Source: Escherichia coli
Lineage (GTDB): Bacteria; Pseudomonadota; Gammaproteobacteria; Enterobacterales; Enterobacteriaceae
Reading direction: 5' to 3' (one strand)
Length of the DNA: 4,443 bases
Assembly: GCF_003334765.1 (NCBI RefSeq)
Contig: NZ_QOWT01000067.1
Shown here piece by piece: positions 4,034-4,077 of this stretch. The first letter of the stretch is position 1, and each line of letters starts with the position of its first letter. The notes below the pieces were generated by a model, which was not told the DNA's origin, ran no database searches, and saw only the letters and a program-made list of their open reading frames with translations. A program made the translations under genes and the position numbers.

Positions 4034-4077
4034 AAACGATCGATTGTGACGATCTATACCTGTTTTATCGATCGTTT
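4034..4077 (-). promoter_or_regulatory. agn43-type phase-variation switch: three Dam GATC sites within an OxyR-binding region
   Basis: GATC at 4038-4041, 4051-4054 and 4070-4073, i.e. three sites in 36 bp. They are framed by a perfect 11-bp inverted repeat, aaacgatcgat (4034-4044) and atcgatcgttt (4067-4077). ATAG half-site-like motifs are present on the minus strand (GGTATAGATCG, TTTATAGTGG). This matches the known Dam methylation/OxyR repression switch of agn43. Confidence 0.8.

What the first reader, a model, noticed from the sequence alone, without database searches (positions are those of the whole stretch)
4034..4077. Three GATC sites within an 11-bp perfect inverted repeat: an intact Dam/OxyR epigenetic switch
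Three GATC in 36 bp is far above chance (one expected per 256 bp). The sites sit inside a dyad-symmetric element (aaacgatcgat ... atcgatcgttt) downstream of a plausible -10. This is the architecture known for agn43 ON/OFF phase variation, where OxyR binds unmethylated GATCs and Dam methylation blocks OxyR. Finding it intact in front of a truncated ORF raises the question of whether the switch is kept for another purpose, for example as an OxyR sink or to control downstream island genes by read-through.
Basis: partly seen in the sequence, partly recalled or inferred. Interest (0 to 1): 0.45.

Follow-up and report, generated by a model that had tools for sequence, protein, structure and literature searches.

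The report
Known agn43 methylation switch, orphaned by deletion
The three clustered GATC sites are the well-known Dam/OxyR on-off switch of the E. coli adhesin gene agn43 (flu), left standing in front of a gene remnant after a recent 761-bp deletion, so it is an ordinary, already explained feature.

Summary
GATC lies at 4038, 4051 and 4070, and a perfect 11-nt inverted repeat lies at 4034-4044 / 4067-4077. The element reads on the minus strand and is the agn43 (flu) regulatory region. It has the same -10 (TAGAAT), the same three GATCs and the same 19/13-bp spacing as K-12 flu, and it sits upstream of an Ag43-family ORF.

The window is an exact piece of E. coli draft assembly GCA_965137835.1. 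It equals the intact locus of strain TUM9803 except for three differences:
- a 761-bp deletion (junction at 3975/3976) that removed the last 155 nt of the leader, including its terminator and ribosome-binding site, plus the start codon and codons 1-202 with the signal peptide;
- a private C-to-A change at 4055, next to the middle GATC;
- one distant SNP at window position 211.

No junction was found in 5,426 complete E. coli genomes, and the flanks are almost identical to an intact allele. The truncation is therefore recent, and survival of the switch needs no special purpose. Whether it still flips cannot be tested here.

Side observation: the whole island module is purged of GATC. The switch holds three of the only four sites in about 8.8 kb.

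The parts
4102..4107 (-). -35-like hexamer TTGCGT of the agn43 promoter, 17-nt spacer to the -10
   Evidence: Read from the sequence. The TTG and the spacing are conserved with K-12 flu (TTGTCC, 17 nt, TAGAAT). It falls below the threshold of the consensus scan, so its role is inferred from homology.
4079..4084 (-). -10 hexamer TAGAAT
   Evidence: Invariant block TAATAGAATAAAACGATC in the window, TUM9803, A37, A2, E2348/69, IH5 and K-12.
4070..4073 (-). GATC-I in sense order; probable transcription start at 4073
   Evidence: In K-12 the annotated isrC RNA starts at 2071317, which is the G of GATC-I. Rfam RF00124 starts there in K-12 and TUM9803. 5' RACE in EC958 placed the start 228 nt upstream of the ATG (PMC4807369), which is the same base in alleles whose ATG lies at +240.
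4051..4054 (-). GATC-II, 19 bp after GATC-I
   Evidence: same spacing as in K-12.
4055..4055 (-). Private substitution next to GATC-II: sense A where all other alleles have C, or rarely T
   Evidence: It is the only mismatch to TUM9803 in the 3,468 bp upstream of the junction. A 41-mer carrying A matches 0 genomes; the control 41-mer carrying C matches 142. In the metagenome alleles this base is C in 113, T in 5 and A in 0. No metagenome match to the A variant.
4038..4041 (-). GATC-III, 13 bp after GATC-II
   Evidence: Present in 118 of 118 metagenome alleles.
4034..4077 (.). Perfect 11-nt inverted repeat: arms 4034-4044 and 4067-4077, around GATC-III and GATC-I
   Evidence: Perfect in 79 of 87 window-type alleles, but mostly 2 mismatches in K-12-type alleles.
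4039..4053 (-). Inferred OxyR dimer half-site B, ATCGTCACAATCGAT, bracketed by GATC-II and GATC-III
   Evidence: 7 of 10 matches to ATAGnTnnnAnCTAT, my count from the sequences printed. The same 13-bp GATC pair within one OxyR half-site is described for the Salmonella gtr switch (PMC2909390). Inference only; no binding data.
4071..4085 (-). Inferred OxyR dimer half-site A, ATAGAATAAAACGAT, overlapping the -10 and ending in GATC-I
   Evidence: 8 of 10 matches to the half-site consensus. Invariant in all alleles seen. Inference only.
3976..4073 (-). Residual agn43 leader, +1 to +98 of 253 nt
   Evidence: Identical to TUM9803 L004 3371-3468 apart from the SNP at 4055. No Rfam IS102/IsrC hit remains in the window, whereas the intact leader matches in TUM9803.
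3975..3977 (-). Junction of the 761-bp deletion, with 2-nt AT microhomology
   Evidence: TUM9803 L004 3469-4229 is missing. That stretch holds 155 nt of leader, including the intrinsic terminator at L004 3565-3592, the ribosome-binding site, the ATG and codons 1-202.
1735..4023 (-). Remnant ORF of 762 aa: 15 codons read from the leader, fused in frame to Ag43 residues 203-948
   Evidence: NCBIfam NF033177 auto_Ag43 matches profile positions 200-948 only. 746 of 747 residues are identical to TUM9803 Ag43 residues 202-948. No signal peptide. The sequence upstream of the ATG at 4023 is a poor ribosome-binding site.
1688..1714 (-). Intrinsic terminator 21 nt after the agn43 stop codon
   Evidence: 12-bp stem with 8 G-C pairs followed by TTTTTACTTT. 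Fold energy -28.9 kcal/mol, z = -4.5. K-12 has the hairpin but no T-run.
4193..4443 (-). 3' end of the upstream GTPase-family (yeeP-like) gene
   Evidence: Annotation of the identical TUM9803 locus.

Best explanation
This is the regulatory region of the autotransporter adhesin gene agn43 (flu), read on the minus strand.

Known mechanism. A sigma-70 promoter (TTGCGT, 17 nt, TAGAAT) starts transcription at about the G of the first GATC. The three GATCs, at about +1, +20 and +33, lie inside the binding site of the repressor OxyR. When all three are unmethylated, OxyR binds, blocks RNA polymerase and shields the sites from Dam; this is the heritable OFF state. When Dam methylates them after replication, OxyR cannot bind and the promoter fires; this is the heritable ON state.

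What happened here. A 761-bp illegitimate deletion with 2-nt microhomology removed the distal leader with its terminator, the ribosome-binding site, the start codon and the first 202 codons, including the signal peptide. The switch now fronts a pseudogene. It is still present simply because the deletion is recent and happened to start 98 nt downstream of the transcription start. No selection for a new role needs to be invoked.

Shown versus inferred. Shown: the sequence identity, the anatomy, the deletion and its rarity. Taken from the literature: the Dam/OxyR competition mechanism. Inferred and untested: that this copy still flips, and what the private C-to-A change beside GATC-II does.
For: - Position and sequence. 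The TAATAGAATAAAACGATC block and the GATC spacing of 19 and 13 bp are the same as in K-12 flu and in annotated Ag43/Cah loci.
- Transcription start. It is supported at GATC-I by the K-12 isrC annotation, by Rfam RF00124 and by 5' RACE in EC958 (PMC4807369).
- Mechanism. Described in PMC3764049, PMC4872104, PMC2909390 and PMC13337833.
- Downstream ORF. It is Ag43 lacking residues 1-201.
- Source and difference from an intact allele. The window is an exact substring of GCA_965137835.1 contig CBCSCR010000048.1. It equals the intact TUM9803 locus apart from the 761-bp deletion and 2 SNPs.
- Rarity. The junction is absent from 5,426 complete genomes and from the GTDB species representatives.
- Constraint in the family. 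112 of 118 alleles keep all three GATCs while the spacers vary.
Against: - No methylation, OxyR-binding or expression data exist for this copy.
- The inter-GATC spacers differ from K-12: 35 of 48 positions are identical from ATAGAAT to GATC-III. Simple scoring against the OxyR consensus is weak, 13 of 20 at best.
- The private SNP at 4055 could change OxyR or Dam kinetics.
- The source is a draft assembly, so the deletion has not been checked against reads. The same contig is, however, recorded in 2 samples.
Confidence: 0.88

Rival explanations
1. The switch is retained by selection because it now controls something else. One version is phase-variable read-through into the downstream island genes (DUF905, DUF932, antirestriction, RadC, CbeA/CbtA). 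The other is that it acts as an OxyR sink.
For: There is a precedent: in UPEC, agn43-yeeR-irmA is one OxyR-repressed transcript starting at the agn43 promoter (PMC4807369). The deletion removed the leader terminator, so an ON promoter would now read further. Only 70 nt separate the agn43 stop codon from the DUF905 start codon, and no consensus promoter was found in between. Other 5'-truncated alleles (A2, E2348/69, IH5) also keep all three GATCs.
Against: A canonical intrinsic terminator with a T-run follows agn43 here; K-12 lacks the T-run. The deletion allele was found in one contig from 2 samples and in none of 5,426 complete genomes, and its flanks are nearly identical to an intact allele. 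Retention therefore carries no information about selection. One extra OxyR site is negligible beside the whole regulon (general knowledge). The only upstream substitution hits the switch itself, which fits relaxed constraint rather than conservation.
Confidence: 0.07
2. The switch is no longer wild type. The private C-to-A change at 4055, beside GATC-II, biases or locks the state by changing OxyR affinity or Dam kinetics at that site. This could have arisen before the deletion, as a first step toward silencing Ag43, or afterwards as early decay.
For: It is the only difference from TUM9803 in 3,468 bp upstream of the junction, which is about a 1-2% chance of landing in the ~50-bp site. The position is C in 113 and T in 5 of 118 alleles, and never A. 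None of 5,426 genomes has it, against 142 with the C version. The change creates an ATAG, which is an element of the OxyR motif.
Against: The base lies 2 nt outside the 15-nt half-site bracketed by GATC-II and GATC-III, or in the spacer in the alternative register, so no consensus position changes in the likely register (inference). A single SNP chosen after the fact has little statistical weight. T is tolerated at this position in 5 natural alleles.
Confidence: 0.15
3. The truncation is an assembly artefact of a draft genome, and the strain really has an intact agn43.
For: The source is a 28-kb contig of a draft assembly. Ag43 passenger domains are internally repetitive at the protein level.
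Against: The junction joins unique leader sequence to coding sequence with only 2 nt of microhomology, which is not a collapse across a repeat. The contig is recorded in 2 samples. Independent natural 5' deletions exist in A2 and E2348/69.
Confidence: 0.04
4. The GATC cluster is a chance cluster, or a different kind of GATC element such as a SeqA tract, a pap-like Lrp/Dam switch or a cluster of restriction sites.
For: At normal GATC density, 5% of simulated 4.4-kb windows contain such a cluster.
Against: Base-for-base positional homology with the flu switch, and conservation in 112 of 118 alleles. The pap design has two GATC boxes 102 bp apart (PMC2909390), which is not seen here.
Confidence: 0.01

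Closest known systems
agn43 (flu) Dam/OxyR phase-variation switch of E. coli K-12 (Henderson & Owen 1999; Haagmans & van der Woude 2000; Waldron 2002; Wallecha 2002)
   Same: Same locus type: yeeP-like GTPase gene, then the switch, then agn43. Same -10 hexamer, three GATCs at the same positions relative to the -10 (start-to-start 19 and 13 bp), and a transcription start at GATC-I.
   Different: The inter-GATC spacer sequence belongs to the other major allele class: 35 of 48 positions identical from ATAGAAT to GATC-III. This class has a perfect 11-nt dyad between GATC-I and GATC-III, while K-12-type alleles mostly have 2 mismatches. There is a private A at 4055. The controlled gene is a 5'-deleted pseudogene.
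Intact agn43 locus of E. coli TUM9803 (NZ_CP135671.1) and A37
   Same: Identical sequence on both sides of the junction, 1 mismatch on each side within the window, and the same chromosomal context: MFS transporter, hydrolase, LysR, GTPase, agn43, DUF905, DUF932.
   Different: TUM9803 has the full 253-nt leader, which matches Rfam IS102/IsrC and carries its terminator, and a 948-aa Ag43. The window lacks 761 bp of this.
Salmonella gtr (P22) and opvAB OxyR/Dam switches
   Same: OxyR and Dam compete for the same DNA, and GATC pairs 13 bp apart bracket one OxyR dimer half-site (PMC2909390; PMC4856963).
   Different: Those systems have four GATCs in two pairs and alternative OxyR sites upstream of the promoter, and OxyR also activates. 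agn43 has one repressor site downstream of the -10.
agn43-yeeR-irmA operon of UPEC (Moriel et al. 2016, PMC4807369)
   Same: It shows that the switch-controlled promoter can drive genes downstream of agn43.
   Different: The window has DUF905 and DUF932, not yeeR-irmA, after agn43. It also has a T-run terminator that K-12 lacks.
Other natural agn43 remnants: E. coli A2, IH5, E2348/69, and NRZ14408 with an ISEc12 insertion
   Same: A disrupted agn43 with the promoter and the three GATCs still present.
   Different: The end points or mechanisms differ, so these are independent events. None shares this junction.

Membership tests
agn43/flu Dam-OxyR phase-variation switch | Three GATC sites clustered at the start of the transcribed region, start-to-start 19 and 13 bp, immediately after the -10 hexamer | tested here: met
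   Window 4073, 4054 and 4041 (sense starts). Identical register to K-12 L003 2318/2337/2350 and to 112 of 118 other alleles.
agn43/flu Dam-OxyR phase-variation switch | Sequence homology of the promoter and switch core to the experimentally studied K-12 region | tested here: met
   The TAATAGAATAAAACGATC block is invariant. 35 of 48 positions are identical from ATAGAAT to GATC-III. The spacers belong to a different allele class.
agn43/flu Dam-OxyR phase-variation switch | Located upstream of an Ag43-family autotransporter gene | tested here: met
   NF033177 auto_Ag43, 1560 bits, but profile positions 200-948 only.
agn43/flu Dam-OxyR phase-variation switch | OxyR binds the unmethylated site and represses transcription | not testable with these tools
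   Only consensus scoring was possible: half-sites of 8/10 and 7/10, and 13/20 at best for the full site. This is inconclusive on its own.
agn43/flu Dam-OxyR phase-variation switch | Dam methylation of the GATCs blocks OxyR, giving heritable ON and OFF states | not testable with these tools
   Needs methylation-aware sequencing or reporter assays. The mechanism is taken from the literature.
Functional Ag43 autotransporter gene | N-terminal extended signal peptide and complete passenger domain | tested here: not met
   Residues 1-201 are missing. The N-terminus [16 protein letters not shown] is translated leader sequence.
IS102/IsrC RNA (Rfam RF00124), which is the agn43 leader | Match to the covariance model from the transcription start to the leader terminator | tested here: not met
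   No hit in the window at E up to 1. K-12 scores 252.6 bits and TUM9803 scores 70.4 bits. Only the first 98 nt survive in the window.

The most novel reading that the evidence does not exclude
The orphaned switch may still flip. Because the deletion removed the leader terminator, it could now drive a phase-variable transcript across the pseudogene. Through partial read-through of the terminator at 1688-1714, that transcript could reach the DUF905, DUF932, antirestriction, RadC and CbeA/CbtA module, making antirestriction and toxin-antitoxin genes epigenetically heterogeneous in the population.

A related point: the island module is purged of GATC except at the switch. This would mean the three sites are actively maintained against a pressure that removes GATC.
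Probability: 0.07. Interest if true: 0.4.

Novelty: already known. Interest (0 to 1): 0.12.

Why it matters
It matters little beyond annotation. The finding correctly recognises a textbook epigenetic switch from raw sequence.

The useful additions are:
- An exact description of how this copy was orphaned: a 761-bp deletion that takes the leader terminator, the ribosome-binding site and the signal peptide.
- The source contig, and the evidence that the event is recent, which removes the need for a 'new purpose'.
- A natural variant beside GATC-II that could serve as a ready-made test of how flanking bases tune Dam/OxyR competition.
- The observation that the mobile module carrying agn43 avoids GATC everywhere except in the switch. 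This is indirect evidence that the three sites are under selection in the family.

Tried and rejected
- **MAFFT alignment with K-12.** It introduced a spurious 13-nt gap in the switch. Ungapped comparison shows the same GATC register.
- **Consensus promoter scan.** It found nothing, because the real promoter scores only 3/6 + 5/6. The promoter was assigned by homology.
- **Scoring against the 37-nt OxyR consensus.** It gives no clear register, 13/20 at best. It was not used as evidence of binding.
- **Scan of GTDB representative genomes.** The junction was not found. The generic switch pattern gave only an E. coli-like contig binned in a Collinsella MAG and one chance hit, so no taxonomic breadth was obtained.
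- **Metagenome scan for the A variant.** Nothing found.
- **Primary papers.** Wallecha 2002 and Kaminska 2010 are not held, so the details of single-GATC mutants come from my own knowledge and were left out of the argument.
- **8-nt inverted repeat 4004-4011 / 4093-4100 flanking the switch.** One arm differs in A2, E2348/69 and K-12 without compensation. I treat it as chance.
- **GATC-free zone as an insulator built for the switch.** I rejected the idea that it is specific to agn43, because ten consecutive island genes lack GATC.
- **Rfam search of the window.** Only a sub-threshold NsiR1 hit on the terminator hairpin; this is noise.

Full report
**Observation.** The window has four GATCs, at 1414, 4038, 4051 and 4070. 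A perfect 11-nt inverted repeat has arms at 4034-4044 and 4067-4077. Two GATCs sit in the arms and one sits between them.

With GATC at its expected density (15.7 per window), 5% of simulated windows contain three sites in 36 bp. What is unusual is that the window is otherwise almost free of GATC, with P(total 4 or fewer) = 0.00075.

**What it is.** All genes in the window are on the minus strand. In order they are:
- the end of a GTPase-family (yeeP-like) gene (4443-4193);
- a 169-nt intergenic region;
- an ORF of 762 aa (4023-1735);
- a hairpin terminator (1714-1688);
- DUF905, DUF932 and the start of an antirestriction gene.

The ORF is an Ag43/Cah autotransporter that matches NCBIfam NF033177 only from profile position 200 onward.

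In sense orientation the intergenic region reads TTGCGT, 17 nt, TAGAAT, AAAAC, GATC, 15 nt, GATC, 9 nt, GATC. K-12 flu has the same TAATAGAATAAAACGATC block and the same GATC start positions (L003 2318, 2337 and 2350; spacing 19 and 13). So do the annotated Ag43 loci of strains A37, TUM9803, A2, E2348/69 and IH5.

The transcription start falls on the G of the first GATC, window 4073. Three lines agree on this:
- the K-12 isrC RNA is annotated as starting at that base;
- Rfam RF00124 (IS102 RNA) matches from there to the leader terminator in K-12 and TUM9803;
- 5' RACE in UPEC strain EC958 placed the start 228 nt before the ATG (PMC4807369), which is the same base in alleles whose ATG lies at +240.

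This is therefore the agn43 Dam/OxyR phase-variation region. In the published mechanism, OxyR binds the unmethylated GATC region and represses transcription. Dam methylation of the same sites blocks OxyR and allows transcription. The two states are inherited and re-contested after each replication (PMC3764049, PMC4872104, PMC2909390, PMC13337833).

**Constraint in the family.** I scanned metagenome contigs with a pattern that covers only the promoter (TCTCTTG, 19 nt, ATAGAATAAAAC).
- GATC presence: 112 alleles have all three GATCs in register, 4 lack GATC-II, 2 lack GATC-I, and none lacks GATC-III.
- Spacers: the sequences between the sites vary and fall into two main classes.
- Dyad: the window belongs to the larger class (87 of 118), in which the perfect 11-nt dyad is the rule (79 of 87). 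K-12-type alleles mostly show 2 mismatches. The perfect dyad is therefore a class trait and not a requirement of the mechanism.
- Design: GATC-II and GATC-III, 13 bp apart, bracket a sequence that resembles one OxyR dimer half-site (7/10). The same design is described for gtr in Salmonella. A second half-site, ATAGAATAAAACGAT (8/10), overlaps the -10 and ends in GATC-I. These assignments are inferences.

**The truncation.** The window is an exact substring of contig CBCSCR010000048.1 of assembly GCA_965137835.1. Compared with the intact locus of E. coli TUM9803, it differs by one 761-bp deletion and two substitutions.

The deletion spans TUM9803 L004 3469-4229 and has 2 nt of microhomology (AT). 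Its junction lies at window 3975/3976. It removed:
- leader positions +99 to +253, including a strong intrinsic terminator (L004 3565-3592) and the ribosome-binding site;
- the start codon;
- codons 1-202, which include the extended signal peptide and the first part of the passenger domain.

An ATG within the leader (window 4023, +51) happens to be in frame. This produces the 762-aa ORF whose first 15 residues are translated leader. The product has no signal peptide and a poor ribosome-binding site, so it cannot be a working autotransporter. It is a pseudogene.

**Is the switch 'kept'?** None of 5,426 complete E. coli genomes has this junction. The six records that cover both sides all carry extra DNA between the two matched pieces. 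The junction is also absent from the GTDB representative genomes.

Upstream of the junction, the contig differs from TUM9803 at one base in 3,468. Downstream it differs at 8 bases in 6,980. The deletion is therefore very recent, and an undamaged switch is what one expects with or without selection.

Independent agn43 wrecks also still carry the three GATCs: A2 and E2348/69 with different 5' deletions, and NRZ14408 with an ISEc12 insertion. The GATCs are only 12 bases in total, so this has little power to show selection.

Read-through into downstream genes has a precedent in the agn43-yeeR-irmA operon. Here, however, agn43 is followed by a canonical terminator with a T-run (-28.9 kcal/mol, z = -4.5). 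K-12, where yeeR follows, has the hairpin without the T-run. I rate a new function for the switch at about 7%.

**The one oddity.** The single upstream substitution lies at window 4055, the base immediately 5' of GATC-II in the sense strand, and reads A instead of C.
- A 41-mer centred on the A variant matches no complete genome, while the C version matches 142.
- No metagenome contig has the A variant.
- Among the 118 sampled alleles this base is C in 113, T in 5 and never A.

The base lies just outside the consensus positions of the likely OxyR half-site, so its effect cannot be predicted. It could be early decay after loss of function, a change that biases the switch, or coincidence (roughly a 1-4% chance of landing there).

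**Side observation.** GATC is avoided across the whole island module, not only in agn43.
- In TUM9803, ten consecutive genes from the GTPase gene to DUF957 contain no GATC. Synonymous-codon shuffles expect about 19 in total. For agn43 alone the figures are 0 observed against 6.7 expected, with at most 0.0005 of shuffles at or below zero.
- The flanking chromosomal genes, DUF4942 and K-12 yeeR are normal.
- 72 of 82 full-length metagenome agn43 genes have no GATC, and the other 10 have one.
- The switch thus holds three of the four GATCs in about 8.8 kb.

A genome-wide link between silenced regions and depletion of Dam sites has been reported (PMC12369378). I did not find this specific case described.

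**Verdict.** This is a known system in an ordinary state of recent pseudogenisation, so interest is low.

Noticed in passing
window 1-4443; L004 1907-10688; L003 1126-5719: The island module is purged of GATC. Ten consecutive genes (GTPase, agn43, DUF905, DUF932, antirestriction, RadC, DUF987, CbeA, CbtA, DUF957) have 0 GATC, against about 19 expected from synonymous shuffles. Neighbouring chromosomal genes and yeeR are normal. The three switch sites plus one intergenic site (window 1414) are the only GATCs in about 8.8 kb. Restriction avoidance by a mobile element is one possible cause.
   Followed up: partly
window 4055: A private substitution sits immediately 5' of the middle GATC (sense A instead of C). 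It is the only difference from the intact TUM9803 allele in 3.4 kb upstream, and it is absent from 5,426 genomes and 118 metagenome alleles.
   Followed up: partly
L003 2316-2519; L004 3369-3605; window 3976-4073: The Rfam family IS102 RNA (RF00124; K-12 isrC) is simply the agn43 5' leader, from the transcription start at GATC-I to an intrinsic terminator about 30 nt before the ATG. The window keeps only its first 98 nt.
   Followed up: yes
window 1688-1714 versus L003 5682-5706: The hairpin after the agn43 stop codon is followed by a T-run in this island type, where DUF905 is downstream. It is not followed by a T-run in K-12, where yeeR is downstream and co-transcription with agn43 has been reported in UPEC.
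   Followed up: partly
agn43 coding sequence, window 1735-3975 and L003/L004: Other tetranucleotide biases appear in agn43. CCGG is strongly over-represented (45-48 observed against 26-29 expected). GGCC is under-represented. TCGA is absent, against 4-5 expected from synonymous shuffles.
   Followed up: no
E. coli genome hits H32/H33 (NRZ14408, LT599825), L002 (A2), L007 (E2348/69), L008 (IH5): agn43 is inactivated repeatedly and independently: by an ISEc12 insertion, by different 5' deletions and by double truncation. About 10 of 92 metagenome alleles whose ORF ends within the contig have premature stops. The promoter and switch are retained in all of these cases.
   Followed up: partly
L005 (JAIJJM010000733.1): A 1.5-kb contig binned in a Collinsella MAG is 95% identical to the E. 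coli yeeP-agn43 intergenic region. This is most likely a binning contaminant.
   Followed up: no
window 4004-4011 and 4093-4100: An 8-nt inverted repeat (GCTGCCTT / AAGGCAGC) brackets the promoter and switch. One arm changes without compensation in other alleles, so it is probably chance.
   Followed up: yes
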